Shown here: one piece after another, positions 6,074 through 57,540 of the stretch | How positions within the stretch are numbered: position 1 is the first letter of the stretch | Layout of the letters: each line of letters starts with the position of its first letter | NCBI GenBank assembly: GCA_018896215.1 | Contig: JAHINB010000013.1 | Location: forward strand, 17,946-81,945 | DNA length: 64,000 bases | Direction: 5' to 3' | From: Patescibacteria group bacterium | GTDB lineage: Bacteria > Patescibacteriota > WWE3 > 0-14-0-20-40-13 | Notes under the pieces: generated by a model | The model's database searches: none | What the model saw: only the letters and a program-made list of their open reading frames with translations | What the model was told of the DNA's origin: nothing | Made by a program: the position numbers and the translations under genes

Positions 6074-6423
6074 AGTGCTTTTTTTAAAACTCCTAAACTT
6101 AAGATGGCACACTTTTTACGAGATGTTGTTAGATCCATTTCTAGTAATTGTAACATCTGCTCTTCGGACATGTCTTTGATTTCTCGTAGCGTTTTTCCCT
6201 TGACAAAATCCGCCAACATGTCGGCCGAAACTGTAGAAATTAAGCAACCGATACCATTAAATTTAATGTCAGTGATAACACCCTTTGAGGTTTTGAAAGA
6301 AACGGAGAGCGCGTCCCCGCACAAAGGGTTTTTTAATGATGCCTTATTTGTGGCATCAACAATCTCACCCATATTTTGCGGGTTTTTATAGCGATCTAAT
6401 AATTCTTCCCGATAAATATTCAT
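6061..6423 (-). CDS. sufU: Fe-S cluster scaffold SufU/IscU-like (NifU N-terminal domain)
   Basis: The three conserved Cys in the NPLCGD, GIGCLIS and KKALCP contexts; 120 aa. Confidence 0.7.
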   Translation of the reverse strand: MNIYREELLDRYKNPQNMGEIVDATNKASLKNPLCGDALSVSFKTSKGVITDIKFNGIGCLISTVSADMLADFVKGKTLREIKDMSEEQMLQLLEMDLTTSRKKCAILSLGVLKKALCPR

Positions 6424-18766: not shown

Positions 18767-18784
18767 GGGTCAGACCCTAAAACA
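18764..18784. repeat. boundary palindrome TAAGGGTCAGACCCTAAAACA
   Basis: Exact copy of 15862-15882. Confidence 0.65.
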
Positions 18785-18858
18785 ACTACAACAAGATTCA
18801 TGAAATTCCCATCCAAAATTTTTTGCCAAAGGCAAAAGCGTTGCAAGAACTTTAGTTC

Positions 18859-19563
18859 TTATTTTCTCCCAGTTTTAAGTTTTCTTTCGGTTTCGCGGAT
18901 AGCGATTTTGGGCAATACTTCTCGATTTGTATTTATATATTCCACAACCTTTTCCCAATGATGCTTGATAAGACTTCTTAAAATCCACGAAACTGCCTTA
19001 GTAATTAAAATGTCTTTTTCCGATTTTAACTTTTCCAAATTCTCAAAAGCTAGTTTTGCCAGTCGTTCATCATTGCTTTCTCTAACTGACCTAGTAAGCA
19101 ACACCAAACTTGCTCTTCTTCTAGAAATATTTTTATCCCTCGCCATCTTTGTAATTGTCTTTTCCCAAACTGACCAGTCACCCAAAATATCCTCTGCTCC
19201 AAAAGTGCTTTGACACAAACTGTCCACCTCACACCATCCGCTAAGATTTGCAAGCCACTCAAAAACCCTTTTTGGAGTAAAGAGATCTTTAAATTCTTTT
19301 TTTCTGGAAATTAAAGTTGTACCAAATCTCCGTTCGTTGGAGGATTCCCCAACATTAAGAGCGTTCAATAACTCCAAAAATTCTTCTTTCGTGATGTTGG
19401 GATGCTTTTTTACAAATTCTTTAGCAATTTGCTTTTGAACCGCTGTTTTTAGGTGATAAAACTTATTATCGGTTCCGAGATACTTTGGCAAATCAAACTT
19501 TGACGACCCCCTATCCAACCTTTTAAATTCCTCGATGATTTCTTTTTGCAATTTGTTAATCAT
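18859..19563 (-). CDS. DNA alkylation repair protein (AlkD/AlkC-like HEAT-repeat)
   Basis: 234 aa with WCEVDSL, ISRRRASLVLL and KAVSWILRSL, as in the DNA_alkylation family. Confidence 0.5.
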   Translation of the reverse strand: MINKLQKEIIEEFKRLDRGSSKFDLPKYLGTDNKFYHLKTAVQKQIAKEFVKKHPNITKEEFLELLNALNVGESSNERRFGTTLISRKKEFKDLFTPKRVFEWLANLSGWCEVDSLCQSTFGAEDILGDWSVWEKTITKMARDKNISRRRASLVLLTRSVRESNDERLAKLAFENLEKLKSEKDILITKAVSWILRSLIKHHWEKVVEYINTNREVLPKIAIRETERKLKTGRK

Positions 19564-19652
19564 AATCTGTTAGTTTATGGGATTCTCTCCCCCACTTCAA
19601 ACTAACGAGGTAGGAGATAATAGAGTTACAAGGTTTTGGGAGATAGCAAATC

Positions 19653-20855
19653 CTATTTGATTAAACCACCCCAAAGATATTCTGTAAATCTCACTGACTT
19701 TTCCTTACCAATAATTCTACTTTTAGAAATCTCTAGGTTTCGAACTCTCCGCTTGAGAGTTTCGTTGTCTGCTTCGGTTGGTGTTTCTTTAACTTCAAAA
19801 GCTAAAGGTTTGTCTTTAAAGTCTAATATAAAATCCACCTCACCATCGCGATTGGAAAAGTAAGATAAATTTCCATAAAAAGATAATTGATGACATACGG
19901 TGTTTTCAAACTTACTTCCACTAGACAGATCCGCGTTTACATTAGCTATTCCCGTATCGACAAAATATGATTTCTGTAATAGTCTATTTTGTATGTCTGG
20001 GGAACGAGAGAAAGCAGAAACTGTGCGTATTAGATAGGTTTGCTTTAAAAATTCAATGTAATTATCGACGGTAATTCTACTTAAACCGGTAATGTTCGCT
20101 AGTTCACTCACATTTAATCTACTTCCAATTCGTGATGCCAATAATTTGATTACTTTTCTTAAATCATTAGTCGATTTAAAGTCAGATAAAGACTGCACAT
20201 CGAGATTAATATACGAGCTAAAAATTTCTTCCAGTAATTGTTTTTTTCGTTCTACATCTGCTGTTAAAACCACTTTTGGCAAACCTCCGTATTCAATATA
20301 CTGTTCGTAGTAATTTTGAAGCATTTTAAAAGTATCAGTTGGAAAATCCACATCAATTGAAAGTTTTTCGGGAAGTAGATATTCTACTCCCTGAAAATCC
20401 AGAAATTCCTGAAAACTTAAAGGAAACATTTCGTATATTATTTTTCGACCAGCCATAGATTCAGAGAACCTGTTTTTGATATAGAATGAGCTAGATCCTG
20501 TAAGAAAAAATTTAATTTGGTAATGATCATACAAATACTTAACTACACTGGGAAGATTTGGTAACAATTGAATTTCATCTAAAGCAATGTAAAGTTGCTC
20601 TTTGGTGGATAGTCCTCTAGTTTGAAACTCGTGGATCAAAGAATCATAGTTTGTCGCCTCGAATAATTCCCGATCAACAAGGTTTTCCAAATCAAAATAA
20701 TGTTTGTTTTTAGATGGAATATTGTCAAGTAGCCAATGGAGAGTTGTAGTTTTTCCTACCTGACGAGGACCTGTAATAACTACAATCTCTTGGGTAGCTA
20801 TCTCGGGCAACAATTTCTTCCAAATCTGTCTATTTTGCATACTATTACTATACAA
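19653..20855 (-). CDS. AAA+ ATPase (AAA_14 + DUF4143 architecture)
   Basis: Walker A ITGPRQVGKTT and Walker B-like LDEIQ. The C-terminal region matches the DUF4143-type layout. Confidence 0.6.
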   Translation of the reverse strand: MYSNSMQNRQIWKKLLPEIATQEIVVITGPRQVGKTTTLHWLLDNIPSKNKHYFDLENLVDRELFEATNYDSLIHEFQTRGLSTKEQLYIALDEIQLLPNLPSVVKYLYDHYQIKFFLTGSSSFYIKNRFSESMAGRKIIYEMFPLSFQEFLDFQGVEYLLPEKLSIDVDFPTDTFKMLQNYYEQYIEYGGLPKVVLTADVERKKQLLEEIFSSYINLDVQSLSDFKSTNDLRKVIKLLASRIGSRLNVSELANITGLSRITVDNYIEFLKQTYLIRTVSAFSRSPDIQNRLLQKSYFVDTGIANVNADLSSGSKFENTVCHQLSFYGNLSYFSNRDGEVDFILDFKDKPLAFEVKETPTEADNETLKRRVRNLEISKSRIIGKEKSVRFTEYLWGGLIK

Positions 20856-20998
20856 TAACCGCCTTTAATTGTAAAGTGGTTAGTCAAATTCGTAGAATAA
20901 GCCTGGGGCATAAAGTTTTGGAAAACATTAGACTCTCTTAGATAAGTAGCTAAGTCTCAGTGGTTCTCTAAAACTACACTCTCTCAATAAAAAATTAT

Positions 20999-21199
20999 CT
21001 AAGATTTAGAAGAATAGGCTAACATCAATACCCCATAGACAAAACAAATAGATCCAACGAAATAAAACATAGATTCTTTGCTTAAATAGCCAACCAGCAA
21101 AGAAATCACACCAAGACTAGCTATAAAATATGCGATTAATTTATAATTTCTTTTCATTAATATTTTTTGTTTTGGCGTAAGACCTTTTTGATCCTTCAT
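20999..21199 (-). CDS. small two-TM membrane protein, hypothetical
   Basis: 66 aa with two hydrophobic helices. Confidence 0.3.
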   Translation of the reverse strand: MKDQKGLTPKQKILMKRNYKLIAYFIASLGVISLLVGYLSKESMFYFVGSICFVYGVLMLAYSSKS

Positions 21200-21240
21200 A
21201 TCTTTTATACTAGCATATACAAATTACACGCACAATAACA

Positions 21241-21315
21241 TGGTGACCTCACGGGGGATCGAACCCCGATTGACGACTTGAGAAGCCGCCGTCCTAACCA
21301 TTAGACGATGAGGCC
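21241..21315 (-). tRNA. tRNA-Glu (anticodon CTC)
   Basis: Acceptor GGCCTCA/TGAGGTC (one G-U pair), D-arm GTCT-AATGGTTA-GGAC, anticodon stem GCGGC/GTCGT with loop TTCTCAA, T-arm CGGGG-TTCGATC-CCCCG, then A-CCA encoded. Confidence 0.65.
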
Positions 21316-21644
21316 ATAATTAAATTTCTAATTTCTAATTTCTAATTTATCTCGCTTCGCGAGACATACTTCGCATGTTAAACAAGCACCAAGTATCAAT
21401 TCCCAATTTGGTTCGCCGATTGGCGAATTGGTTATTGGGATTTATCTAGGTTAATTAGATAATTAGATCAATTAGAAATTCCAATCTTTGCCCATTCTAC
21501 AACATATTAAACAACTTGACGAGGGGGTTAGGGTATGCTAAATTAATTGAGCATTTTCATTGCATTATTGGTTATCCCAGATTCTATTTAAACACTGTGT
21601 ATCATCCAAAAACTGATGGTTGTGGTGTTTGTAGTAGTTACAAC

Positions 21645-22103
21645 ATGGACAAGGTTATCTTAACCCAAGAAGGGTTGGAAAGGCTTAAAAAAGAATACGA
21701 AGGCTTGGTAAATACAAAGCGTCAAGAAATTGTAGATCGCATTGCTAAAGCCCGCGCTGAAGGAGATCTCTCCGAAAACGGCGCCTATCATGCCGCCAAG
21801 GAAGAGCAGGCTTTTATCGAGGGAAGAATTGAGGAATTAGACGAAATCTTAAAAAATGCTCTAGTTGAGGTATCTTCTAAAAACGACGGGTTAATTCGTG
21901 TTGGGTGCTTAGTAAAAGTTAAAATAGAAGGTTCCGAGGAAGAATTTAACATTGTAGGAGCTCCCGAAGCCAATCCTTCGGAACGCAAAATTTCTCACGA
22001 ATCGCCTTTGGGAAGCGCCTTAATAGGAAAAAAGGTTGGGGATGTCGTAGAAGTAGAGGCGCCGGTGGGCAAAATAACCTACGAGATTCTCTCGGTAAGC
22101 TAA
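21645..22103 (+). CDS. greA: transcription elongation factor GreA
   Basis: ILTQEGLERLKKEYEGL...AKARAEGDLSENGAYHAAKEEQAFIEGRIEEL is the GreA coiled-coil with the acidic tip, followed by an FKBP-like C-terminal domain. Start placed at the internal ATG (MDKVIL). Confidence 0.8.
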   Translation: MDKVILTQEGLERLKKEYEGLVNTKRQEIVDRIAKARAEGDLSENGAYHAAKEEQAFIEGRIEELDEILKNALVEVSSKNDGLIRVGCLVKVKIEGSEEEFNIVGAPEANPSERKISHESPLGSALIGKKVGDVVEVEAPVGKITYEILSVS

Positions 22104-43515: not shown

Positions 43516-43604
43516 ATCTATAACAAGATTCAAGAAAACTTCCTATTAATATCCCCGATGGATATCGGGGGCGTTACATATTTCCACGCTTCCCGCGTGG
43601 AAAT
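43516..43604. repeat. E-family structured intercistronic repeat (rplB-rpsS spacer)
   Basis: ATCTATAACAAGATTCAAGAAAACTTCCTATTAATA, then hairpin CCCCGAT-gga-TATCGGGG, then GCGTTACATA, then hairpin TTTCCACGC-ttcc-GCGTGGAAA, then TCTATTTCC. Confidence 0.7.
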
Positions 43605-45809: not shown

Positions 45810-45905
45810 ATCTTATAACAAGATTCAAGAATAATTCCTATTAATTTCCTCGCCCACGGCGAGGGCGTTACATAGTTGCACGAGCTTGCTCGTGGAAATC
45901 TATGT
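45810..45905. repeat. E-family structured intercistronic repeat (rpsJ-rplC spacer)
   Basis: ATCTTATAACAAGATTCAAGAATAATTCCTATTAATTTCC, then hairpin CTCGCC-cacg-GGCGAGG, then GCGTTACATAG, then hairpin CACGAGC-tt-GCTCGTG, then GAAATCTATG. Confidence 0.7.
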
Positions 45906-47617: not shown

Positions 47618-49726
47618 TTATACTTTTCTTCCTTCGGCAATTTTTGTTGCCACCGATGCCGGAACCTCCTGATAATGACTGGGCTCAATATTAAAACTTC
47701 CTCTTCCTTGAGTAATGCTTCGCAGGGTTGTGGAATAACCAAACAACTCGGCAAGCGGAACCAACGTTTTTATAATCGCCAAGTTTCCTTTGCTTTCGGT
47801 ACCCTCTATTCTACCACGCTTTGAGCTAATGTCACCTATGACATCTCCCATGAAGTTTTCGGGTACCGAAACCTCTACCTTCATGATAGGCTCTAAAAGT
47901 GCTGGGCTGGCTTTTCTCGCGGCATCTTTAAATGCCTCTATGGCTGCTATTTTAAACGCAATTTCCGAAGAGTCAACCTCGTGAAAAGATCCGTCATATA
48001 ACGCCACCAACACATCAACTACCGGATACCCGGCAACAACGCCACTTTCTAAAGCTTCTTTGACTCCTTTTTCCACCGCTGGAATATACTCTTTGGGAAT
48101 TGAGCCACCTACAATCTCGTTCACAAATTTAAAACCTTCTCCAGCTTCTCGCGGTTCCAAACGCAACCAAACATGACCATATTGACCCCGCCCACCTGAC
48201 TGCCTAATATACTTACCTTCTTGCTCCACAATTTTTTTGATGGTCTCTTTAAAGGCAACTTGCGGAGCACCCGTTTCTGCCCCCACCTTAAATTCTCGCT
48301 TCATCCGATCAACAAGAATTTCCAAATGCAATTCGCCCATTCCAGCAATTAAAGTTTGTCCGGTTTCGGGGTTGGATTTTATTTTAAAAGTTGGATCCTC
48401 TTCGGAGAGTTTTTTTAGAGCCATTCCCATTTTTTCTTGGTCTTGCTTTGTTTTTGGCTCGATAGACATAGAAATAACCGGTTCGGGAAAACTAATTGCC
48501 TCAAGTAAAATTGGATTTTCCTCTGAACACAGCGAATCTCCCGTAAAAGTGTTTTTAAGTCCCACAACCGCGGCAATTTCACCAGCTTTGACCTCTTTGA
48601 CATCTTCACGATCGTTGGCATGCATTAAGACAATTCTACTAAATCGTTCTTTTTCGCCACGGGTGGCGTTTAAAACATACGACCCAGCTGTAAGTTTTCC
48701 CGAGTAAGCTCTAAAATAGGTCAGTCTTCCAACATAAGGGTCGGTTTGAACTTTAAAAGCCAATCCCGAAAAATGCTCCGTAATATCAGGTCTTCTTTCT
48801 TCTTCGGCTCCTGTTTTAGGATTCTTGCCTTTAACGGGAGGAAGTTCTAATGGAGATGGGAGAAGATTAATTACCTGATCTAACAAGCTTTTTACAATTA
48901 CGCCTCGTCCATCTCCTCCAAAAACCGGAAAAACCTCGCCACTTAGAGTAGCTTTTCTAACCGCTCGCATAAGCTCGCTTTCTGATATCTCTTTACCGTT
49001 GAGATACTTATCCATAACTTCGTCATCAAAGTCAGCAACTCTTTCCAACATTTCTCCTCTCCATTTTTTTGCTTCTTCGATTAAATTTGCGGGAATTTCT
49101 TCTTCCACTAAATCTTCTTGCAAATAGTCAGTATAGGTATAAGTCTTCATCCGAATTAAATCGATAACACCATGGAGGTCTTTTTCAAATCCCAGGGGCA
49201 AAACAATAGGAAACGCTTTAGAGCTTAGCCTTTCCCTAATTGATTCCAAACTCCTGTAAAAATCTCCGCCAATTTGGTTAATTTTATTAATAAAACAGAT
49301 TCGGGGAACATGGTATTTGCTGGCTTGTCGCCAAACAGTTTCCGATTGTGGCTCCACTCCCATCTTTCCGTCAAAAACAACTATTGCTCCATCAAGAACC
49401 CTTAGAGAGCGTTCCACCTCGGCGGTAAAATCCACATGCCCTGGAGTATCAATAATGTTGATTCGGTAAACAGCACTTTTTTCTCCAAAATACCTGCGCC
49501 AAAAACAGGTAGTAGCGGCAGAGGTGATAGTGATTCCCCTTTCTCGTTCTTGTTCCATCCAATCCATTTGGGTGTCACCTAAATCGATCTTGCCAATTTT
49601 GTGAGTTTTTCCGGTATGAAACAAAACCGCCTCGGTAGTGGTTGTTTTGCCCGCGTCAATGTGGGCAATTATTCCAATATTTCTAATTCTATCTAGGGGT
49701 ATTTCCCCAAATTCTTTGTCTTGCAT
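47618..49726 (-). CDS. fusA: elongation factor G
   Basis: [21 protein letters not shown] and the EF-G domains IV/V. Start at the ATG for [19 protein letters not shown] (the longer ORF prefix looks non-coding). Confidence 0.95.
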
Positions 49727-50055
49727 GATCTTACAACAAAAAACTCCTATACGGAGTTTCCTCTTTTTAGCAAATTTTGCAACTAATAGCAACGGGTAAT
49801 CACAATCGGTTTGACACCGCACAATTTCCCCTTGACAAGAGTCGTATCTTATAGTAAAAACTGCTCACCTGTCAACTACTTGGAGAGAGCCTGTAAAAAG
49901 GGCTTCCCCTGCGCCTTTTGCGTCTTATCCCTGTCATAAAAATCAGTAAACGAAAAATGAATCGTGTTTCCCTCACTCTGTGGGGGAGATTCAGGCACCT
50001 TAAAAACTGAATAGCGAATTTCATCTTTTATCAAAGAAAGGAAAGGAGGTGTCCC

Positions 50056-50700
50056 TTGTTTGATTTAATAAAGGGAGCACTATGGGCGATGGCAGGAGCT
50101 TTCGGGGACATCTTCCTGCTGGTATTCAATGTCTTGTCCCCATTGTTATTTGACCCGCTAAAAGCGGGAGCGCTGGAGCTCCGTGGCAATGAGTCTGAAA
50201 AAGAGGCTCTAGAAAAGATTGCCACGGCGTTCAAGAGGAACAGGCGCCTTCGCTGGAAAGCTCTGGATCCCGAAAGGGATCCTGCTATGGTTGGTCTGTA
50301 TGTACTGACCAACAATCTCCGTTTCCTCTTTGAGCTCCTAGCAACACAGGTCTTGCTAGAGAGCTCCGCAGGAGGAGAAAGTATAACGCTGATCAAGCAT
50401 GTACGGTTCGGCTGGCTCCTGCGCCTTTTTAGTTTTGAAGGCTACGCGGAGCCAACCCCACTGACTGACATCACTCCCGCGAGAGGTGGCGATGTCACTT
50501 ATCTGCCGTGGAAGATCATCCATGGATCCTCCGGAGAGGTTGTGGAGACCGGTCTTCTCGTAAGGCTGGTCAATTTCCTGACCCAAAAGAGGGTAGTTCA
50601 ATTCTTGACCGCGTCGGGGGAAGCCGACATGTGGCAATTCCCAAACGCGGAGAGATCATGGCGCAAGCTGATGTGGTTGGTCGAAGTCACTACTCAATAA
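50056..50700 (+). CDS. island gene 1: hypothetical protein with N-terminal hydrophobic segment
   Basis: TTG start 6 nt after AAGGAGG. 214 aa. G+C-rich codons. No recognisable motif. Confidence 0.45.
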   Translation: MFDLIKGALWAMAGAFGDIFLLVFNVLSPLLFDPLKAGALELRGNESEKEALEKIATAFKRNRRLRWKALDPERDPAMVGLYVLTNNLRFLFELLATQVLLESSAGGESITLIKHVRFGWLLRLFSFEGYAEPTPLTDITPARGGDVTYLPWKIIHGSSGEVVETGLLVRLVNFLTQKRVVQFLTASGEADMWQFPNAERSWRKLMWLVEVTTQ

Positions 50701-50717
50701 AGGAAAGGAGAAATATC

Positions 50718-50993
50718 GTGTTTAGCAACAGTGTTCTTGCGGTTGCTGGGGTCGGCGCTGTGGCTTTGGCCGTCGCTGCGATCATCATCCTCTGGTCCTC
50801 GAAAGGCGAGGGGATCGGAGGGGTCGCGGGGGCGGTGGTGGCTGCTATGGCGCTGTTGTTGGGGCTTGGGGTTGTGGCGGCGACTGCCTTCGGCATTGCC
50901 TCCCATTCCTCAAGCTATTTCAGTATGTTTGATGGACTGGCGCAGTCATTCGGCCAGTTCGTCAGTAGAGTTGTCCAAATCTTCACCCCCTAA
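50718..50993 (+). CDS. island gene 2: 91-aa Gly/Ala-rich two-TM-helix protein (pilin/VirB2-TrbC-like or holin-like)
   Basis: GTG start 8 nt after AGGAG. Two hydrophobic helices (LAVAGVGAVALAVAAIIIL and VAAMALLLGLGVVAATAFGIA) separated by SSKGEGIGG. Confidence 0.45.
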   Translation: MFSNSVLAVAGVGAVALAVAAIIILWSSKGEGIGGVAGAVVAAMALLLGLGVVAATAFGIASHSSSYFSMFDGLAQSFGQFVSRVVQIFTP

Positions 50994-51003
50994 CGGGGCA
51001 GGA

Positions 51004-52044
51004 GGGAACGAGATGAAAATGAAACGGTTTCTGAAAACCGTCGCTCCCCTCGCTTCCCTCCTGCTTCTGGCGGGATGTACAGGAGGTGAGGGGGACGGTG
51101 TAGGAAAGATGGTCGCAGGAGTGATAGGGGAGCTTAAGGGGATCAGTGATCTGATTAAGTTCGGGATCATCGGTCCTCGAGTTGAGTTACCCCTTTCAGT
51201 TTGGGCAGGGATTGGCGGTCTCGCCTCCCTACTCATCTTAATCGGTTTCATTTTCACCGCGTGGATGTCCGCAAGGGCCTACGCGCGGCGCCAGCCTGTA
51301 GAGGACTGGGGAATCGGTTGGTTTCTGCTTCTGATGATGACCGGAATCTGGATTTTCTTATCCGGTTATCTGTTATCGGGGGCGTACCTAGAGTTCCCTG
51401 ATCTTGGGTTGGCGGATTTCGTTGTGAGGGGGATGGGGCTGATGGATCTTGCCGGGGGAGTATTGCTTCTCATGGCGGGTTTGGTCCTATTTTCCCTACG
51501 GATGATCATGTGGTCAATGTTGCTCGTGGCCGCCCTGTTTGTTCCAATCATTGCGGTAATCGCGCAATGGACAAACAGGCGTGGATTGATTGCGTACGCT
51601 TCAGTGCTGTTTTCTTACATCGTGTACGCGATGTACCCGTTCATCCTGGCGTTCGTCCTCAACACAGATCTTGGTCTACCCACCATTCCCCTGTTGGGAG
51701 GAGGCGGACTGATAAAAGCGGCAGTTCTAGTAATTACTGCCGGAGCGCTTCTCTTCTTCTTCCTGTTTGGTCCTTTGCTTCTGCGAAAAGTGTTCACGGC
51801 GATCGCGCCGAAAGAAACCGTTCTGCAAAGGGAGCCAAACAGGCTAGAGCCGGAGGAGATCGTTGCTTTGGTAATGTCCGCCCTTGCCCTCTTAACCGGG
51901 GGCGGACTGGAAGCGGCTCTAGCGCACATCTTCGGGCCTCTCTCCAAGAGGCTTGGAGTTGATGTTGGTGGAGTTGTCGATGGAGTGAAAAACGCCACCC
52001 GCAGTGGCAACACCGCAGCGGCAAATCCAGAACCCCCGGCGTAG
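51004..52044 (+). CDS. island gene 3: polytopic membrane lipoprotein (VirB6/TrbL-like topology)
   Basis: GGAGG RBS. Signal peptide with lipobox LLLAGC. About seven further hydrophobic helices and a hydrophilic C-terminal tail. Confidence 0.5.
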   Translation, partial: GNEMKMKRFLKTVAPLASLLLLAGCTGGEGDGVGKMVAGVIGELKGISDLIKFGIIGPRVELPLSVWAGIGGLASLLILIGFIFTAWMSARAYARRQPVEDWGIGWFLLLMMTGIWIFLSGYLLSGAYLEFPDLGLADFVVRGMGLMDLAGGVLLLMAGLVLFSLRMIMWSMLLVAALFVPIIAVIAQWTNRRGLIAYASVLFSYIVYAMYPFILAFVLNTDLGLPTIPLLGGGGLIKAAVLVITAGALLFFFLFGPLLLRKVFTAIAPKETVLQREPNRLEPEEIVALVMSALALLTGGGLEAALAHIFGPLSKRLGVDVGGVVDGVKNATRSGNTAAANPEPPA

Positions 52045-52063
52045 CGCGGGGAGGGAGGAAACC

Positions 52064-54010
52064 ATGTTGAGTATTTTGGCTCGAGTAGGAGAGCCCTTAG
52101 GGGATCTGATGTATACAATCCTCCTGTGGGCTTTGGATACGCGGTGGAGCCGCAAGCTCCGCCCGTATCTGCTGGTCTTTCTCTTCCTCCCCGCGTCTCT
52201 TTTTCTCTCTCAACTGCTTCACCCAGCGGGACCCGTCGTGGTTCTGGGCGGTTTGGGAGCGATTTTCGCGATTGGTATCGCCTACAAGTCTTGGGCGATG
52301 CTTCCGCGGAGATTTGGGAGAGAAAAGAGAAAGAGGGGTTGGATTGAGGAAGTCGTTGGAGAGGCAATGAGACTCTTGGGATTTGCCTCTCCGTTGGAAT
52401 CGCTGTTTTCGGTCAACGGATATCCAGTGTGGGAGATTACCTATCCGCCCGAGCAACCGGGGGAAACAATCCTCGGAAACTCCGGTAGAGTCCGGTTGAT
52501 TTCCACACCTGTAGGGTTGGAAGTTCCGGGGTTCCTCGCGGCAACGCGGGCGGACTCGAAAGATCCACCATTCGTGGCGGAAGCTCTAAAGAGTATCGGA
52601 GATTTCGCCCTTCCTGGGAGTGGATCCCTATGGCCTCGTCGGCTAGTCCGCCAAATCTTGCTCACGGCAGATATGCCATCAGAGCAAGCGCCGGATGTGC
52701 CTCTTGGTAGATTGCTGGAGCCGAGGGCTGTTCGTCTTAAGACGGAAGCGCTTTTAGCAAGTTCCGGAGCGACCGAAAGTACCCCAAGGGTTGAGGAGGT
52801 TTTGACCTACGGGGGAACCGCGGTTGCTAAGTTTGGCAAAGCGGGAACGCGGAAGTGCGCTTTCGTGGAGCTTAGACCTCGCTGTTTGGGTTTCGGCAAG
52901 AACCTTCCGCTTTCGGAGGCGCTAAATCGGCTTCTGTCTAAAGGCTATCCTATTTCCTTTGAAGCCGAAAGGATCGCCTCCGGCACCGTCTTTGGACGGC
53001 TGACGGCAATGGTTCTTCTCAAGAACGGCCGAGGGTCGTTGAAGCGGGCGTTGGGCGAGTTCCGCTCTGCAGGATTCGAAATCCCGTTGCTGGGGAGCTC
53101 CAAGACTGGAGCGTCCGGACTCTTCCGTCGCTTCCTTCCGGAAACGGAAATTGAAGCTAGCGGAGGATTCTCTTTGACGGCAGAAGAGTTTTGCCTAGTC
53201 TCCGATGCCCTTTGTTCTAGTGTCGGTTCGGCATCACGCGATCCCGACGAGGCACTGTTCGTCGGGTTGCGGGGCAGAACCCCGTGTTTTCTCGAACCCC
53301 GACCCCACGAACTCCGCACCGGGGTCCAGGGATCGGGCAAGACCACTGGCGTGAACTCGAGTCTCCTCCAAAGAACTGGTGGGAGATTTGTGGGAATCAT
53401 CAGTGGCACTGATCCCAAGGCAAGCACTCTGGCAATGGTGTGTGATGCGGGGGGTAAGGTTGTTGATGTTTGTGGAAACGACAGTGAAAAAACTGGACGG
53501 GCATGTGTGGCGGAAGCAATCGGGTTCCTTCAACAGGGAAAACCGTTCACCATCCGCCCTATCGGTGTGGAGTTCACACCACAACTCGTCCAGTTCGCAA
53601 TCGGCTTCGTTGACGAGTTCACCAAGGAGGTTCCCAAGGCCGACTGGTCCGCGGTTCTTCCTGCAGGTCGGCATCTGGGACTTTTGGTGGATGACCTCTT
53701 CCGTCTCCTCGCCGCTAGGGCAACCTATAGCATGGAGGCAGAGGTTGACAGACTTCTCGCTATCTTAGAAACAGCAATGTCGGAGCTGTGGAAGCCAATT
53801 CCCGGTGGGTACCCAGGATGCATTGTCGCAGTGACGACACAGGCTCCAGGAGATCCACCTCAAACGATGTATGACAAGTTTGGTATCGTTATACATCATC
53901 AAGGTCCGAAATCCGCCGTGATTTCTAGGTATTTGGATTGGGAACCAACATCAATCAACACCTGGATCTCCAACAAGGATCTGCACAACCTCGTTTCGGC
54001 TCGGCGGTAA
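52064..54010 (+). CDS. island gene 4: membrane-anchored ASCE P-loop ATPase (FtsK/TraB/VirD4/VirB4-like)
   Basis: GGAGGGAGG RBS. Two or three N-terminal TM helices. Walker A GVQGSGKTTGV (aa ~419-429) and Walker B AIGFVDEF (~aa 512-519) about 95 aa apart. About 130 aa follow the Walker B. Confidence 0.55.
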   Translation: MLSILARVGEPLGDLMYTILLWALDTRWSRKLRPYLLVFLFLPASLFLSQLLHPAGPVVVLGGLGAIFAIGIAYKSWAMLPRRFGREKRKRGWIEEVVGEAMRLLGFASPLESLFSVNGYPVWEITYPPEQPGETILGNSGRVRLISTPVGLEVPGFLAATRADSKDPPFVAEALKSIGDFALPGSGSLWPRRLVRQILLTADMPSEQAPDVPLGRLLEPRAVRLKTEALLASSGATESTPRVEEVLTYGGTAVAKFGKAGTRKCAFVELRPRCLGFGKNLPLSEALNRLLSKGYPISFEAERIASGTVFGRLTAMVLLKNGRGSLKRALGEFRSAGFEIPLLGSSKTGASGLFRRFLPETEIEASGGFSLTAEEFCLVSDALCSSVGSASRDPDEALFVGLRGRTPCFLEPRPHELRTGVQGSGKTTGVNSSLLQRTGGRFVGIISGTDPKASTLAMVCDAGGKVVDVCGNDSEKTGRACVAEAIGFLQQGKPFTIRPIGVEFTPQLVQFAIGFVDEFTKEVPKADWSAVLPAGRHLGLLVDDLFRLLAARATYSMEAEVDRLLAILETAMSELWKPIPGGYPGCIVAVTTQAPGDPPQTMYDKFGIVIHHQGPKSAVISRYLDWEPTSINTWISNKDLHNLVSARR

Positions 54011-54045
54011 TCGGTCCATCAAGCAAACCCCCAAAGGAGGGCGGA

Positions 54046-55395
54046 ATGGACGACTGGGAAGAGATCTTAAGCCTTAAGTGGCTCCTGTCCACCGCCCTCC
54101 AATCATTTGCTATCGTTGCGACAGTTTGCGCGATGGCATTGGTTGCGGGGGCGGTTTTAGTTTTCGCCTTCCTATTTGACAAAACTGGGGGGGCGATTTG
54201 GGATGTACTGCTAAAGGAAGCGGGAATTTTTGTCCCGCGTGTTGTCTGCACGGAAGTAGAAACGCTGACGGCAGTGGGAGAATCCTCATATGAATTTCAA
54301 CAGAACTACGATGGTGGTAGTGAGGATAGCGCATGGGCGCTTCTTCCCGCTGGAGTTCAACGCTGGCGCGGTCTTCTGGAAGAAACGGCTCTGCGCCACG
54401 GCTTTGACCCTCTGATGTTCGGGGTCATTGCCACAATTGAGAATCCTGCCGGTAACCCCACCGCGGGATCCTGGGCGGGCGCCCAAGGGTTGGTTCAAGT
54501 GATGCCGTTCAACTTTACGGCTAACGAAACCGACCACTTTGATCCCGCGACAAATCTGGAGGCGGGAGCGAGAGTCTTTGCTTCCTGTCTCCGTCTGGCG
54601 GGGGGAGATTTCCGCTTGGCGGGCGCCTGTTACAATGCAGGACCCCGCATCCTGCGGATGAACCTTGCCAACTGGTTTGCCGAAACTCTGTTATATTATC
54701 GCCGCTCGGCGATATATGACGAGATTCGGCAAGGTAGGACTAACACGCTAGATTCATGGCTGGGAGGTCATGGGGGCGCTGTCATGGCGTCAGGAGCGGA
54801 AGCTCCGAGCGCGACAGGCGCTACTACCCAAACCTCCCAAGTATGCAAAATTTGTCTTGTTCCCAACCCCAATGACGGACTGCTGGGGTTTTTGGGAACA
54901 GCGTTGGAGCTTCTGGGGTTGGGACCTTCCAGTCCCTGCTCCGAAGTCTCGGCTTCAACATATCAATCCTCTGCCACAGTGGTGGCGGGGGGGAATGGCA
55001 GTTGGCGCTATCCGGTGGAGGGCGCCACGGTATCGGACGGTCCGTGGCACAAAATCCCAGCGCTGGATTTTATGGTCTCGCTGGGAACACCGGTGGTGAG
55101 CGCCCACACGGTTCCAGCAACCGTGGAATACTCTGGATGCAACAATGCCGGAGGATACGGATGCTGGGTTCTGCTGATGCACGACGACGGTAAGTCAACC
55201 GTCTATGTGCATTTGGACGAGAGTCTTCCTGTCAAGACCGGCGATCGGGTGGATGCGTCCACTTTGCTTGGCCGGGTCGGTTTGACGGGAAAAACCTCTG
55301 GACCCCACCTGCACTTCGAGGTGCGGGAAGGGTTGTATAACCATATAGATCCCGCAGAAGTGTTCGGGGAGATTGGAAAAGGAGGTCTAAAATGA
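54046..55395 (+). CDS. island gene 5: membrane-anchored bifunctional peptidoglycan hydrolase, SLT lytic transglycosylase + M23 peptidase
   Basis: AAAGGAGG RBS. N-terminal TM helix. SLT motifs ATIENPAGN, GAQGLVQVMP, ACYNAGP. M23 motifs H..D (HKIPALD) and TGKTSGPHLHFEVREG. Confidence 0.65.
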   Translation: MDDWEEILSLKWLLSTALQSFAIVATVCAMALVAGAVLVFAFLFDKTGGAIWDVLLKEAGIFVPRVVCTEVETLTAVGESSYEFQQNYDGGSEDSAWALLPAGVQRWRGLLEETALRHGFDPLMFGVIATIENPAGNPTAGSWAGAQGLVQVMPFNFTANETDHFDPATNLEAGARVFASCLRLAGGDFRLAGACYNAGPRILRMNLANWFAETLLYYRRSAIYDEIRQGRTNTLDSWLGGHGGAVMASGAEAPSATGATTQTSQVCKICLVPNPNDGLLGFLGTALELLGLGPSSPCSEVSASTYQSSATVVAGGNGSWRYPVEGATVSDGPWHKIPALDFMVSLGTPVVSAHTVPATVEYSGCNNAGGYGCWVLLMHDDGKSTVYVHLDESLPVKTGDRVDASTLLGRVGLTGKTSGPHLHFEVREGLYNHIDPAEVFGEIGKGGLK

Positions 55396-56609
55396 TGGTA
55401 GAGAAAGGTCAAAATCCTCCTCTTGAAGAGGATGAGAAGGAGGAGCAGACTGGGTCGCGCAAGCGAGGGATTATTGGGTGTCTTGTTGCTCTAGGCATCC
55501 TTATCCTACTCTTCGCCTGCGTAGCGGGGGTGATCGTTGCCGTGGGGAGGCGAGCTGTGGATGAGATAAAGCCTCAACCCACACCCGCACCTACCCCTCA
55601 ACCCCTCCTTGTCTTTGGGCAATGCGAGGGGAACAGCCCCCGATGCGCCCAAGGCGGAAGCGGGGTATTCTTCCCGGGAAACCCCAAAAGGGTCAACTCC
55701 TGGGACGCGCCCCTCCAGTTCTGGGCCGAAACATCGGCTCCAAACGGCGGGACACAACAACGTCCAGTGGGAAAGCTTGTCAAAAATACGGAAGTATATG
55801 AGACAGGGGATCCTGTGAACGGGATGCAACCGGTTGAATGGGTAGTCAAGATTCCCGAGGGGCTGATGGCAAAGCCCCAAAGAGATTGGGAAGTCCGCTA
55901 TGAGGAAGTGGCAGATTTTCCCACAGAGGATCAGCTCGACGAGGTTAGGGATTGGTTGCTTGAGGGAATCAGTTCCTACGAAGTTTTGGACAAATCCCTG
56001 ATCGACCCACCCTACAAGTACGGTTCAGAGGGAGATGTGATGGCGGTTGGAAGTTGGAAGTCCAGCCGAAATTGGTGGCTCGTCTCCTTCCGGGGCTGGG
56101 TGGCGGTTGGTTTGGGAGCAGTGATCGTACCAACCCCCGAACCTACCCCAACGACAGTCCCGGTTCCAACGGAATTGACTCCGGCACCTACTCAAGCCCC
56201 TGACTGCCCGGTCTGTACTGGAGGAGCGCGAAGGGATCCGACAAATCCTTGCGGGCAGGTGTGTGACAACACCTACTACCCACCCGCCCCAGCGCCAACG
56301 ACAAGTGTCTGCACCCCGGGACACTTGGAGTGGATCAAGAGCCTTGACGAGGTCTGGATTTATGAGACCTCAACGGGGCAAAAACTTTGGAGTTTGTCGG
56401 AGTTTCGGATTCAGATGTTCAGCGTCGGTCTCATCTCGGAGGATGAGACCCTTACCCCCGTCCCCACAGGCTCGAAAGAGGCTCTGCGGATAGACAAGGG
56501 TGGATTGCCCGTGGACAGGACGAACGGATATATCGAAATATCCGGATCGGTTCTATCACGGAGAACGAATGAAAGACGAACCTGGTGCCATGAGGGATAC
56601 TGGAAGTGA
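55392..56609 (+). CDS. island gene 6: membrane-anchored Pro/Thr-linker, Cys-rich surface protein
   Basis: ATGA overlap with gene 5. TM helix at aa ~25-50. Linkers PQPTPAPTPQP and PTPEPTPTTVPVPTELTPAPTQAP. Cys cluster CPVCTGG...CGQVCDN...CTPGH. Confidence 0.5.
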   Translation: MMVEKGQNPPLEEDEKEEQTGSRKRGIIGCLVALGILILLFACVAGVIVAVGRRAVDEIKPQPTPAPTPQPLLVFGQCEGNSPRCAQGGSGVFFPGNPKRVNSWDAPLQFWAETSAPNGGTQQRPVGKLVKNTEVYETGDPVNGMQPVEWVVKIPEGLMAKPQRDWEVRYEEVADFPTEDQLDEVRDWLLEGISSYEVLDKSLIDPPYKYGSEGDVMAVGSWKSSRNWWLVSFRGWVAVGLGAVIVPTPEPTPTTVPVPTELTPAPTQAPDCPVCTGGARRDPTNPCGQVCDNTYYPPAPAPTTSVCTPGHLEWIKSLDEVWIYETSTGQKLWSLSEFRIQMFSVGLISEDETLTPVPTGSKEALRIDKGGLPVDRTNGYIEISGSVLSRRTNERRTWCHEGYWK

Positions 56610-56636
56610 CCTTCCAACTTCCCATGGCGCCACTGG

Positions 56637-56688
56637 AAGCGGAGGAAATCTTGGGCTAGCACAGCCAAGGTCTTCTCCGCTTTTTTTA
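56637..56688 (+). terminator. intrinsic terminator candidate at the island 3' end
   Basis: AAGCGGAG ... CTCCGCTT stem enclosing an internal hairpin, followed by TTTTTTT. Confidence 0.45.
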
Positions 56689-56697
56689 TAACAAAAT

Positions 56698-57540
56698 TTA
56701 ATAAATCCCAAGTTCTATTGCAGTTTTAATTTGGGGAATGTCGGTGGGGATTTTAATGTGAGAAAGACTATTACCTTTAAAGCTTTGGATAATTTTTACC
56801 CCGGCGCAATCAATTGCCACCCTTCCAGTTGATGCCAAAAGCAAATTTGGTTCCCTTATTTCCCCCTCTGTAGGTCCTCGGGTGATAAAACATTTTCGAG
56901 CGTCCATAATTACCAAGTCTGGCTTGATAACAGTATTGATTAAAGCGACTTTTTCTTGCAAGTTTTTAAGATGCATTCTAATGCGCTCTATTGGTTTAAC
57001 AAAACCAACTGTTAGCTTTAACGCCCCAGTGTACTGCGCCTGTTTGTGAGTTTTTAAACAGGGAACATAAATTATCTTATCGGCTTTAGTTACAATTTCT
57101 GGAATAGAAACGCTTTTTAGAATTGGGGAGGAGATTGCGGATTTAACCCATCTCCCTTCCTCAAAAACATACATTCTTGGAGGAGTATCCGAATTTAATA
57201 ACTCGAATACCCCCTTCTTTTCCATAATCTTTCGCGTGTTTAAAGTAACTGTAGAGGAATCGCCAATGGCAACAAGTTTTGCCCCATGCTGATACAATAG
57301 TTCGGTAAGACATTTTAAAAATTCCACATCGGAGGAGGCGGGAAAGGGGTCAGCGGTATTAAAATTGGGTTTAACAAAGACTACATCTCCTGTGCTGATA
57401 AATCTCTTAAACCCACCAAGCTCTTCAACCAAGTTGTGGATGGATTCTTTTAAATTAGCTTTGGGAGTGATTTTTACAACTTTTATCAACAGACAATCAA
57501 TGAATCGGTCTAACCTGCATGACACTCGCGGAAACAGCAT
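56698..57540 (-). CDS. DUF362-family protein
   Basis: DVVFVKPNFNTADPFP ... TVGFVKP pattern of DUF362. Low-GC host-like composition. The exact start is uncertain (non-ATG start in the ORF track). Confidence 0.45.
   Translation of the reverse strand: MLFPRVSCRLDRFIDCLLIKVVKITPKANLKESIHNLVEELGGFKRFISTGDVVFVKPNFNTADPFPASSDVEFLKCLTELLYQHGAKLVAIGDSSTVTLNTRKIMEKKGVFELLNSDTPPRMYVFEEGRWVKSAISSPILKSVSIPEIVTKADKIIYVPCLKTHKQAQYTGALKLTVGFVKPIERIRMHLKNLQEKVALINTVIKPDLVIMDARKCFITRGPTEGEIREPNLLLASTGRVAIDCAGVKIIQSFKGNSLSHIKIPTDIPQIKTAIELGIY

What the first reader, a model, noticed from the sequence alone, without database searches (positions are those of the whole stretch)
54046..55395. Membrane-anchored bifunctional cell-wall hydrolase: family-1 lytic transglycosylase (SLT) fused to an M23 endopeptidase
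The N-terminal TM helix is followed by SLT signature blocks (ATIENPAGN with the putative catalytic Glu, GAQGLVQVMP, ACYNAGP). A C-terminal M23 domain follows (WHKIPALD ... GKTSGPHLHFEV). Two-activity hydrolases of this kind (muramidase/transglycosylase plus peptidase) are the dedicated peptidoglycan-punching enzymes of Gram-positive conjugation systems and of some phage tails. Its position directly after the ATPase and translationally coupled (ATGA) to the downstream surface protein argues that it is part of one apparatus.
Basis: partly seen in the sequence, partly recalled or inferred. Interest (0 to 1): 0.6.

Follow-up and report, generated by a model that had tools for sequence, protein, structure and literature searches.

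The report
Wall-cutting enzyme of an unknown machine
The gene really encodes a membrane-anchored two-part cell-wall-cutting enzyme, an ordinary type in itself, but it is the only recognisable part of a foreign six-gene operon shared by two groups of ultra-small (CPR) bacteria, whose other five proteins match no known family.

Summary
Observation confirmed. ORF 54046-55395 (449 aa, strong SD, ATGA overlap with the next gene) has an N-terminal hydrophobic anchor, an SLT/GH23 domain (Pfam 2e-11) and an M23 domain (2e-19). The SLT motifs are intact (E132, GLVQ, YNAGP). The M23 domain keeps D341, H389 and H421xH423. It lacks the canonical HxxxD histidine: Ile sits at D-4 and His at D-6, whereas 91 of 98 homologues have His at D-4. 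Peptidase activity is therefore unproven.

Context is the real result. The gene is the fifth of six co-directional genes (A-F, 50056-56609) that end in a strong terminator. They form a GC-rich island (GC3 0.57-0.67 versus 0.33-0.42) between fusA and DUF362/rpsG of a Parcubacteria chromosome. Three further assemblies confirm one or other junction. Between strains, backbone dS is about 0, against 0.43-0.74 for genes A-C and the N-terminal part of D (dN/dS 0.11-0.17).

A Saccharibacteria MAG carries the same operon at 25-38% identity. There the peptidase module is NlpC/P60 and F ends in LysM. Genes A-D and F match no Pfam, NCBIfam, PHROG or PADLOC family. D is a membrane-anchored RecA-fold P-loop ATPase whose family I could not resolve.

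Most likely E opens the wall for this unclassified envelope complex. A conjugation or phage origin is not demonstrated.

The parts
50056..56609 (+). Six-gene operon A-F, a GC-rich foreign island between fusA (47618-49726, -) and DUF362 (56698-57489, -)/rpsG/rpsL/rpoC
   Evidence: GC is 0.53-0.57 against 0.36-0.44 in the rest of the 64 kb. GC3 is 0.57-0.67 against 0.33-0.42. The same junctions occur in independent MAG assemblies L013, L016 and L017.
50056..50700 (+). Gene A, 214 aa, N-terminal hydrophobic segment, no known family
   Evidence: SD GGAGG lies before the TTG start. It is 30% identical (1e-18) to the first gene of the Saccharibacteria cluster. dN/dS is 0.17.
50718..50993 (+). Gene B, 91 aa, two predicted TM helices
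   Evidence: SD and hydropathy. A 100-aa two-TM ORF sits at the same position in L012, but shows no detectable sequence similarity. dN/dS is 0.13.
51013..52044 (+). Gene C, 343 aa, lipoprotein-like signal (LLLAGC) followed by about 6 TM helices
   Evidence: Hydropathy. It is 27% identical (1e-11) to L012 4110-5585, which has the same signal-plus-polytopic layout. dN/dS is 0.11.
52064..54010 (+). Gene D, 648 aa, two N-terminal TM helices plus a C-terminal P-loop NTPase (Walker A GVQGSGKT at nt 53321, Walker B LLVDDL at nt 53681, VTTQ at nt 53831)
54046..55395 (+). Gene E, the finding: 449-aa anchored SLT + M23 peptidoglycan hydrolase
54082..54186 (+). E aa 13-47: hydrophobic signal-anchor, rich in Ala/Gly/Val
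   Evidence: Kyte-Doolittle scan. A TM segment sits at the same place in the Saccharibacteria orthologue.
54382..54666 (+). E aa 113-207: SLT/GH23 domain. E132 (nt 54439-54441), GLVQ 148-151, YNAGP 196-200
   Evidence: Pfam 2e-11. A profile including it hits Slt70 1QSA at 4e-20.
54844..54945 (+). E aa 267-300: conserved Cys-flanked linker (C270-L-x-P ... LLGLGP ... C298)
   Evidence: These residues are invariant between the Parcubacteria and Saccharibacteria orthologues, although the peptidase module that follows differs.
55060..55332 (+). E aa 339-429: M23 (LytM) domain. D341, H389 and H421-L-H423 are present. The canonical first His is replaced (I337), with H335 two residues upstream
   Evidence: Pfam 2e-19. 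PDB alignment to 9gy1. Motif census gives 91 of 98 with His at D-4.
55392..55395 (+). ATGA start/stop overlap between E and F
55392..56609 (+). Gene F, 405 aa, one TM helix, Pro/Thr-rich linkers, extracytoplasmic domains
   Evidence: Hydropathy. It is 26% identical (2e-16) to L012 9463-10743, which ends in a LysM domain (Pfam 1.5e-5, above cut-off).
56635..56687 (+). Intrinsic terminator closing the operon
   Evidence: Hairpin of -26.9 kcal/mol, z -4.46, followed by U7.

Best explanation
E is a type-II anchored, extracytoplasmic peptidoglycan hydrolase. It serves as the dedicated wall-opening component of the complex encoded by its own operon (A-F).

That operon encodes five further membrane proteins:
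- a two-TM mini-protein (B);
- a lipoprotein-signal polytopic protein (C);
- a membrane-anchored RecA-fold P-loop ATPase (D);
- a bitopic wall-facing protein (F), which carries a LysM peptidoglycan-binding domain in the Saccharibacteria orthologue;
- gene A.

Proposed mechanism. The anchor keeps E next to the nascent complex. The SLT module (general acid E132) cleaves MurNAc-GlcNAc bonds. The C-terminal peptidase module cuts, or at least binds, stem peptides or cross-links. Together they make a local gap through which the D-energised membrane complex and F span the wall.

The operon is a horizontally acquired module exchanged between strains of CPR bacteria. It is probably of high-GC monoderm (Chloroflexota-like) ancestry, and it cannot be assigned to any named secretion or conjugation system.

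Shown: domain identity, motifs, operon structure, conserved synteny, foreign composition and purifying selection. Inferred: the topology, that the target is the cell's own wall, cooperation with A-D and F, and any enzymatic activity.
For: Domains and motifs.

Operon structure: an SD before each of the six genes, gaps of 35 nt or less or overlaps, and one strong terminator after F.

Conserved six-gene order in a Saccharibacteria MAG: A 30%, C 27%, D 25%, E 38% and F 26% identity, with E-values from 1e-11 to 1.6e-48.

At the same position the peptidase module is a non-homologous NlpC/P60 domain with its DCSG Cys and DHCG His intact. This argues that a peptidase function is what is selected. F' carries LysM.

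Purifying selection: dN/dS is 0.11-0.17 for A-C and the N-terminal part of D. E shows only 4 changes, all synonymous, against a variant whose neighbouring genes differ by 10-30% at synonymous sites.

Precedents for anchored SLT+peptidase enzymes next to the ATPase of an envelope machine: the G+ conjugation cluster L007; the Thermomicrobium flagellar operon, fliI-fliJ-hydrolase; and Patescibacteria VirB1 homologues with M23/LysM domains, plus peptidase and lysozyme genes downstream of virB4 that are essential in S. epibionticum (PMC12102498).
Against: No neighbour can be assigned to a known machine, so 'apparatus' rests on synteny and topology alone.

The first M23 zinc-ligand His is out of register, so the second activity may be lost. 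SpoIIQ, EnvC and DipM are precedents for non-catalytic LytM domains (my knowledge; all three appear among the hits).

The Ser of the ES motif is Asn.

Structure models of D and F were too poor to test architecture (pLDDT 45 and 40).

Nothing shows whether the substrate is the cell's own wall or that of a host cell.
Confidence: 0.6

Rival explanations
1. The operon is an extremely diverged monoderm type IV secretion system (MPF_FATA-like, as described for Patescibacteria). On this reading B is VirB3/VirB2-like, C is VirB6-like, D is VirB4 or a coupling-protein ATPase (with a VirB3-like TM part fused on), E is VirB1/PrgK/TraG-like and F is VirB8-like or an adhesin. E would then be a genuine VirB1 analogue.
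For: The gene order and topologies mimic prgH-prgI-prgJ-prgK-prgL (my knowledge).

In the Saccharibacteria cluster the TM part of D is a separate 85-aa ORF, like VirB3/VirB4.

The 'VTTQxPxD' motif after Walker B resembles the FtsK-HerA/VirB4 sensor-1 Gln (motif comparison from memory).

In Paceibacteria, VirB1 homologues, some with M23, are associated with virB4 (PMC12102498). A TM-SLT-M23 protein sits in a bona fide conjugation cluster.
Against: D gives no hit to AAA_10, CagE_TrbE_VirB, FtsK_SpoIIIE or T4SS-DNA_transf, even at E=10.

C, B and F have no TrbL/VirB6, PrgI or VirB8 signal.

There is no relaxase or coupling protein in the island. Canonical Paceibacteria T4SS loci lie near dnaA/dnaN, not in the str operon.
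Confidence: 0.25
2. E is an offensive or feeding enzyme. The A-F complex would be displayed on the epibiont surface, and E would breach the peptidoglycan of the host (basibiont) cell to release or import nutrients, rather than remodelling the producer's own wall.
For: Patescibacteria are obligate epibionts. [quoted passage not shown]

Island alleles are far more diverged between near-identical strains than the backbone (dS 0.43-0.74 against about 0). Assemblies repeatedly break inside D-F. This is the pattern expected for a locus under host-interaction pressure.

The peptidase module is swapped (M23 versus NlpC/P60), as expected if specificity tracks different host wall chemistries.
Against: E is membrane-anchored with short linkers and has no obvious release signal.

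E itself is the most conserved gene of the island between variants, not the most variable.

No toxin-immunity pair or delivery signal is recognisable.

The pattern is equally explained by recombination at any surface structure.
Confidence: 0.2
3. E is a housekeeping autolysin or division enzyme (MepM/ShyA/DipM-like, or an Slt-like enzyme) that merely happens to lie beside unrelated membrane-protein genes.
For: The best NCBIfam domain hits are to DipM, ShyC and MepM. An E-like anchored SLT without a peptidase lies between trmD and ychF on high-GC contigs, which is a housekeeping context.
Against: All NCBIfam scores are far below the equivalog cut-offs (62.7 against 900, and so on).

The gene lies inside a compositionally foreign island. 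It is translationally coupled to F, and its neighbours are conserved across two CPR classes.
Confidence: 0.05
4. The island is a prophage or tailocin remnant or a lysis cassette. B would be a holin, and E a signal-anchor-release endolysin or tail-associated lysin.
For: PHROG hits of the two domains go to tape-measure, tail-lysin and endolysin families. PDB hits include phage gp41 TMP and Gp16. The anchor is rich in Ala and Gly, like SAR domains (SAR comparison from memory).
Against: These are domain-level hits only. A-D and F have no PHROG hit. D and F have no match in 50,697 phage genomes. IMG/VR holds no close relative of D or E.

There are no capsid, tail or integrase genes and no tRNA or att repeats.

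All genes tested are under purifying selection and are conserved across classes.
Confidence: 0.04
5. The GC-rich segment is an assembly or binning chimera and does not belong to this chromosome.
For: The GC jump is abrupt. In other samples the island lies on short contigs.
Against: The left junction (fusA-A) is reproduced in GCA_043827225.1 and GCA_018817985.1. The right junction (F-DUF362-rpsG-rpsL) is reproduced in GCA_043825695.1. These are independent assemblies.
Confidence: 0.02

Closest known systems
PrgK (pCF10), TraG (pIP501) and CwlT (ICEBs1): multidomain VirB1-like hydrolases of monoderm conjugation systems
   Same: All have an N-terminal membrane anchor and a glycan-cleaving module combined with a peptidase module. 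PrgK has LytM + SLT + CHAP, TraG has SLT + CHAP, and CwlT has a muramidase + NlpC/P60. Each gene lies next to the ATPase gene of an envelope-spanning machine (my knowledge; cited as refs 72-76 in PMC12102498). The Saccharibacteria orthologue E' (SLT + NlpC/P60) mirrors CwlT and TraG.
   Different: This operon has no detectable VirB4, VirB6, coupling protein or relaxase. The domain order and combination (SLT then M23) differ from PrgK. Sequence identity exists only at the generic domain level.
Patescibacteria VirB1 homologues with Peptidase_M23 or LysM domains (Quinonero-Coronel et al. 2025, PMC12102498)
   Same: They come from the same phylum. They are SLT-type hydrolases carrying extra M23 or LysM domains, associated with the secretion ATPase gene, especially in Paceibacteria (= Parcubacteria). 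Peptidase and lysozyme genes downstream of virB4 are essential for epibiotic growth in S. epibionticum.
   Different: Those loci are defined by an HMM-detectable VirB4 and usually lie near dnaA/dnaN. Here the ATPase is unclassifiable and the locus is a GC-rich island inside the str operon. The assembly accessions of this genome and of one sister assembly, and the inferred protein accessions of E, were not found in the two supplementary files of that paper that are held as text.
TM-SLT-M23 protein P0011 in metagenomic Gram-positive-type conjugation clusters (locus L007)
   Same: It has the same three-part architecture, TM + SLT + M23. It sits in an operon with membrane proteins and translocation ATPases.
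   Different: It is 329 aa, has a canonical HxGxD motif, and is only about 30% identical over 28% of the query. Its neighbours are recognisable (AAA_10/VirB4-like, FtsK_gamma, Replic_Relax).
Thermomicrobium roseum flagellar-operon hydrolase WP_012642874.1 (and the Limnocylindrales-type proteins P0004-P0007)
   Same: It is the best annotated match covering both domains: SLT 38% identity (3e-17) and M23 35% identity (2e-16). Its gene lies directly after the export ATPase (fliI-fliJ). It comes from a high-GC Chloroflexota-related lineage, consistent with the island's composition.
   Different: The domain order is permuted (M23 first). It has no N-terminal extension or conserved Cys linker, its HxxxD motif is canonical, and it lies in an unmistakable flagellar context.
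Phage tape-measure and tail lysins with M23 or SLT modules (PHROG 10030 and 2013; PDB 9b45 gp41, 9m7n Gp16)
   Same: They use the same catalytic domains to breach peptidoglycan locally.
   Different: In phages the domains are embedded in very large virion proteins. There is no phage gene in or near the island.
Degenerate LytM factors (SpoIIQ, EnvC, NlpD, DipM)
   Same: They have the M23 fold with an incomplete zinc site. B. subtilis SpoIIQ lacks exactly the first His and acts as a structural part of a cell-cell channel (my knowledge). All are among the hits.
   Different: E keeps four of the five catalytic residues and has a His two positions upstream. The degenerate factors usually lack several.

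Membership tests
Family-1 lytic transglycosylase (Pfam SLT PF01464 / GH23) | Profile match above the curated threshold | tested here: met
   43.9 bits against a cut-off of 21.3, E 2e-11, aa 113-207. A family profile hits Slt70 1QSA at 4e-20.
Family-1 lytic transglycosylase (Pfam SLT PF01464 / GH23) | Catalytic Glu at the end of the helix preceding the E-S motif | tested here: met
   E132 is invariant in alignments with the Saccharibacteria orthologue and with P0002, P0011 and P0024. It aligns with the Glu of 8rhe. Alignment with Slt70 E478 requires a one-residue insertion after the Glu.
Family-1 lytic transglycosylase (Pfam SLT PF01464 / GH23) | Ser following the catalytic Glu (ES motif) | tested here: not met
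   The residue is N133. The orthologue E' and other homologues have ES. This residue is not known to be essential (my knowledge).
Family-1 lytic transglycosylase (Pfam SLT PF01464 / GH23) | Motifs G-L-M-Q and A-Y-N-x-G | tested here: met
   G148-L-V-Q151 and C195-Y-N-A-G-P200.
Peptidase M23 (LytM) zinc metallopeptidase | Profile match above the curated threshold | tested here: met
   70 bits against a cut-off of 28.7, E 2e-19, aa 339-429. PDB hit 9gy1 at 3.6e-16.
Peptidase M23 (LytM) zinc metallopeptidase | HxxxD motif (first His and Asp as zinc ligands) | tested here: not met
   D341 is present, but position D-4 is Ile337 and the His is at D-6. HMMER puts the template His opposite a gap. His occupies D-4 in 91 of 98 homologues. 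The closest relatives P0003, P0009, P0021 and P0010 also lack it.
Peptidase M23 (LytM) zinc metallopeptidase | HxH motif and the catalytic His of the Y-x-H-L block | tested here: met
   H421-L-H423 and H389 sit in columns where the His is conserved in 117-118 of 118 aligned homologues.
Peptidase M23 (LytM) zinc metallopeptidase | Zinc binding and endopeptidase activity | not testable with these tools
   This needs metal analysis and muropeptide assays.
Monoderm type IV secretion system (MPF_FATA), with E as its VirB1 component | Signature VirB4 ATPase in the cluster | tested here: not met
Monoderm type IV secretion system (MPF_FATA), with E as its VirB1 component | VirB6-like polytopic protein, VirB3-like small TM protein, VirB8-like bitopic protein | tested here: inconclusive
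   The topologies of C, B and F fit, but there is no profile hit. The F model is unusable, with pLDDT 39.6.
Monoderm type IV secretion system (MPF_FATA), with E as its VirB1 component | Peptidoglycan hydrolase encoded with the ATPase | tested here: met
   E starts 35 nt after the D stop.
Monoderm type IV secretion system (MPF_FATA), with E as its VirB1 component | Coupling protein and relaxase (for conjugative function) | tested here: not met
   None is present in the island or in the 64-kb window. The paper notes that most Patescibacteria T4SS also lack a relaxase.
Phage tail-associated lysin or endolysin | Location within a phage or prophage genome | tested here: not met
   None of the five neighbouring genes has a PHROG hit. 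D and F have no match in the phage genome collection. D has no IMG/VR relative, and E has only generic domain-level hits there. There is no tRNA and no att-like repeat.

The most novel reading that the evidence does not exclude
The A-F operon is a previously undescribed envelope-spanning machine, so far seen only in CPR bacteria. It would consist of a membrane-anchored RecA-fold ATPase, a polytopic lipoprotein, a two-TM mini-protein, a wall-binding bitopic protein and the SLT-peptidase enzyme. It would be unrelated at any detectable level to T4SS, T7SS, flagellar T3SS or Tad/T4P systems. It moves between lineages as a compositionally distinct cassette, and its alleles are swapped between near-identical strains. 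On this reading E is its wall-breaching blade, possibly directed at the host cell's wall to build the long-sought epibiont-host conduit.
Probability: 0.3. Interest if true: 0.8.

Novelty: new variant of a known kind. Interest (0 to 1): 0.55.

Why it matters
Taken alone, the enzyme is a familiar kind of tool. Anchored glycan-cutter-plus-peptidase fusions open the wall for conjugation systems, flagella and phage tails.

It matters here because it is the only readable gene in a six-gene operon that occurs in both Parcubacteria and Saccharibacteria. That operon is under purifying selection, is foreign in composition, and differs strongly between otherwise identical strains. None of the searches made here assigns its other genes to a family.

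How CPR epibionts connect to and feed from host cells is an open question. A conserved, ATPase-containing, wall-breaching membrane module is a concrete candidate that can be tested.

The swap between M23 and NlpC/P60 at a fixed position, and the non-canonical M23 zinc motif, also give a clean system for asking which of the two activities such enzymes really need.

Tried and rejected
- Word-indexed homologue searches for D, alone and as a D+P0123 profile, returned only the protein itself. This used two of the three searches.
- The exhaustive HMMER search gave just one distant homologue.
- IMG/VR and JGI metagenome scans for D found nothing.
- hhalign of the D family against single VirB4-like, FtsK-like, FliI and T2SSE sequences gave nothing significant. 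The best was FliI at E 0.008, probability 5%.
- The equal length (648 aa) of D and the L007 protein is a coincidence. The latter is a VirB6-like polytopic protein.
- No convincing flanking direct or inverted repeats, no tRNA and no integrase were found, so the insertion mechanism is unknown.
- The sigma-70 scan found no + strand promoter upstream of gene A.
- PADLOC gave no hit, so a defence-system reading is not supported.
- tblastn of D against plasmids and of D and F against phages gave no match.
- The supplementary files of the Patescibacteria T4SS paper that are held as text do not contain the assembly accessions of this genome and one sister assembly, or the inferred protein accessions of E.
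- I considered a cryptic flagellar export gate (B ~ FliQ, C ~ FliP/R). I rejected it because the Bac_export profiles give no signal even at E=10.
Full report
**1. The observation.**
The ORF is real and well defined. ATG 54046 follows AAAGGAGG at a spacing of 6 nt, and the upstream gene stops at 54010. The stop TGA at 55393-55395 overlaps the ATG (55392) of the next gene as ATGA.

Pfam finds Peptidase_M23 (2e-19, 70 bits against a cut-off of 28.7, aa 339-429) and SLT (2e-11, 43.9 bits against 21.3, aa 113-207). NCBIfam, PHROGs and PDB sequence searches give the same two domains and nothing else. A 35-residue hydrophobic stretch rich in Ala, Gly and Val (aa 13-47) forms the anchor.

**2. Catalytic residues.**
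In the SLT module, E132, G148-L-V-Q151 and Y196-N-A-G-P200 are conserved in every relative aligned. Against Slt70, E132 matches the catalytic E478 only if one extra residue is allowed after the Glu, and the usual Ser is Asn133. I regard the transglycosylase site as intact.

In the M23 module, D341, H389 and H421-x-H423 are in place. The first zinc ligand is not. The sequence is W-H335-K-I337-P-A-L-D341, so the His is 6 residues before the Asp, not 4. HMMER aligns the template His to a gap. Among 98 homologues with the Asp aligned, 91 have His at D-4.

The nearest M23 relatives (P0003, P0009, P0021, P0010) also lack it. P0003 and P0009 share a GCNNAGGYGCW loop with the query, and P0010 has a related one. 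'Bifunctional' is therefore a hypothesis, not a reading.

**3. Where the gene sits.**
The window is contig JAKLRK010000007.1 of GCA_022012835.1, 'Candidatus Parcubacteria bacterium'. The gene lies in the only GC-rich stretch of the 64 kb. GC is 0.53-0.57 over about 50000-56650, against 0.36-0.44 elsewhere. GC3 is 0.57-0.67 against 0.33-0.42 in nine backbone genes.

The stretch interrupts the classical rpoC-rpsL-rpsG ... fusA-tuf-rpsJ array. It holds six co-directional genes, each with a GGAGG Shine-Dalgarno sequence:
- A, 214 aa.
- B, 91 aa, two TM helices.
- C, 343 aa, an LLLAGC lipoprotein-type signal plus about 6 TM helices.
- D, 648 aa, two TM helices plus Walker A GVQGSGKT and Walker B LLVDDL.
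- E, the finding.
- F, 405 aa, one TM helix and Pro/Thr-rich linkers.

A strong hairpin followed by U7 closes the operon at 56635-56687 (-26.9 kcal/mol, z -4.5). The rest of the window is housekeeping: SecA, SecY, aminoacyl-tRNA synthetases, Suf proteins and ribosomal proteins.

**4. It is not a chimera, and it is unusually variable.**
Independent assemblies reproduce the left junction (GCA_043827225.1 and GCA_018817985.1) and the right junction (GCA_043825695.1). All three contigs end inside D or F. In five further metagenome assemblies the identical E protein lies on contigs of only 2.3-3.5 kb, and three of these end at the same base, 56392. This is the signature of population heterogeneity.

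Against L013 the backbone is 99.9% identical up to position 49040. From 49046, inside the 5' part of fusA, and on through the island, identity drops to about 88%. dS is 0.43-0.74 for A-C and the N-terminal part of D, against 0.06 for fusA. dN/dS is 0.11-0.17.

A second variant (L005) is mosaic. D and F differ from the window, yet E shows only four changes, all synonymous. So the genes tested are functional, the alleles are much older than the backbone, and they are exchanged by recombination.

**5. The neighbours.**
A, B, C, D and F match nothing in Pfam (down to E=10), NCBIfam, PHROGs or PADLOC. D, additionally searched against PDB sequences, matches nothing there either. D has no homologue in a word-indexed search of 5.8 billion proteins.

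In an exhaustive HMMER scan of 1.84 billion representatives D has only two hits: a fragment of a strain variant and P0123 (28% identity, 4e-21). P0123 comes from an 'uncultured Candidatus Saccharibacteria' MAG.

Around P0123 the whole operon recurs in the same order:
- A', 30% identity, 1e-18.
- A two-TM mini-ORF at the position of B.
- C', 27% identity, with the same lipoprotein signal and polytopic body.
- A separate 85-aa TM ORF followed by D', 25% identity, 1e-26.
- E', 38% identity, 1.6e-48.
- F', 26% identity, 2e-16.

E' keeps the anchor, the SLT domain and a Cys-flanked linker (C-L-x-P ... LLGLGP ... C). Its C-terminal module, however, is NlpC/P60 (1.7e-17) with its catalytic Cys and His, and F' ends in a LysM domain. 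That cluster is also GC-richer than its flanks (0.43-0.51 against 0.35-0.38).

Synteny conserved across two CPR classes, together with displacement by a non-homologous but isofunctional peptidase, is the strongest evidence that E works with its neighbours and that a peptidase function is wanted at that position.

**6. What kind of machine?**

There is no relaxase, coupling protein, integrase, tRNA or phage gene.

Published work shows that Patescibacteria carry an MPF_FATA-like T4SS. It also reports VirB1 homologues that sometimes bear M23 or LysM domains, associated with virB4 especially in Paceibacteria. Hydrolase genes downstream of virB4 are essential in S. epibionticum (PMC12102498). Those loci are defined by a detectable VirB4 and lie near dnaA. 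A diverged T4SS is the best-named rival (0.25), but its defining feature was tested and not met.

**7. Relatives of E itself.**
- The same TM-SLT-M23 architecture occurs in a clear Gram-positive conjugation cluster (L007: AAA_10, VirB6-like protein, hydrolase, FtsK_gamma, Replic_Relax).
- The best annotated two-domain match is a permuted M23-SLT protein in the flagellar operon of Thermomicrobium roseum, directly after fliI-fliJ.
- The closest SLT modules (41% identity over aa 104-251) are anchored, peptidase-less proteins on contigs of GC 0.58-0.68.
- The closest named M23 relatives are from Chloroflexota (P0009, Chloroflexota bacterium; P0004, Limnocylindrales).

A high-GC monoderm donor is therefore plausible for the hydrolase, and it fits the island's composition.

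**8. Verdict.**
E is a new variant of a well-known kind of enzyme, an apparatus-dedicated anchored SLT-plus-peptidase hydrolase, with a non-canonical M23 zinc motif.

The more interesting object is the operon around it: a conserved, mobile, fast-exchanging six-gene membrane module of CPR bacteria that contains an unclassifiable ATPase. Whether it is a hyper-diverged T4SS or something new, and whether E cuts the cell's own wall or a host's, cannot be settled with these tools. The literature has proposed the host-directed role for CPR transglycosylases in general (PMC11665869).

Noticed in passing
window 49046-56650 compared with L013 (GCA_043827225.1): There is a recombination tract. The two strains are 99.9% identical up to 49040. 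They then diverge to about 88% identity from inside the 5' part of fusA through the island as far as the L013 contig reaches (window 52833). dS is 0.43-0.74 against about 0 for the backbone.
   Followed up: yes
window 56392 (inside gene F), and contig ends inside D in L013 and L016: Three independent metagenome contigs (L003, L004, L006) end at exactly the same base. Other MAG contigs end inside D or start inside F. Assemblies systematically break in the D-F part of the island, which suggests co-existing variants in the populations.
   Followed up: partly
L005 (SRR26275509) compared with window 53200-55720: This is a mosaic variant. The central part of D (53200-53700) and the start of F differ strongly, while the end of D and all of E are almost identical, with 4 synonymous changes in E.
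   Followed up: yes
window 45818-45900 (between rplC and rpsJ): An 83-nt segment with two GC-rich hairpins is present here but absent from the otherwise 99.9%-identical strains L013 and L016. Its left flank resembles 43519-43550. It may be a small mobile or repeated intergenic element.
   Followed up: partly
L012 6003-8060 (Saccharibacteria cluster): The N-terminal TM part of the D-type ATPase is a separate 85-aa ORF that abuts the ATPase ORF (stop at 6260, ATG at 6261), whereas the two are fused in the window. This is a split/fusion polymorphism reminiscent of VirB3/VirB4.
   Followed up: partly
L012 about 5300-5700: A run of N (scaffold gap) lies inside the acidic, repeat-rich C-terminal tail of the C-type protein. 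The end of that gene model is therefore unreliable.
   Followed up: no
window 56698-57540 (-): A DUF362 gene (3.3e-40) sits between rpsG and the island, an unusual occupant of the str operon. Strain L017 has an extra 170-aa gene (weak PsbP_2 hit) nearby that the window lacks.
   Followed up: no
window 49727-49822: The mechanical fusA ORF extends to a GTG at 49822 (734 aa). NCBI aa (start 49726), and the extra N-terminal 32 residues look non-native.
   Followed up: no
window 13024-14778 (+): A VanW + PG_binding_4 protein (5e-44, 3e-24) is another cell-wall-associated protein in the window, with backbone composition.
   Followed up: no
window 19653-20855 (-), within the lowest-GC stretch of the window (0.35, 18001-22000): An AAA_14/DUF4143 ATPase (4.5e-33) is present. 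This family is often found on mobile or defence islands.
   Followed up: no
E aa 365 and 373 (nt 55138-55164): Two Cys residues flank the NNAGGYG loop of the M23 domain. P0003 and P0009, relatives that also lack the canonical first His, share exactly this loop, and P0010 has a related one. They may form a disulfide or compensate at the active site.
   Followed up: no
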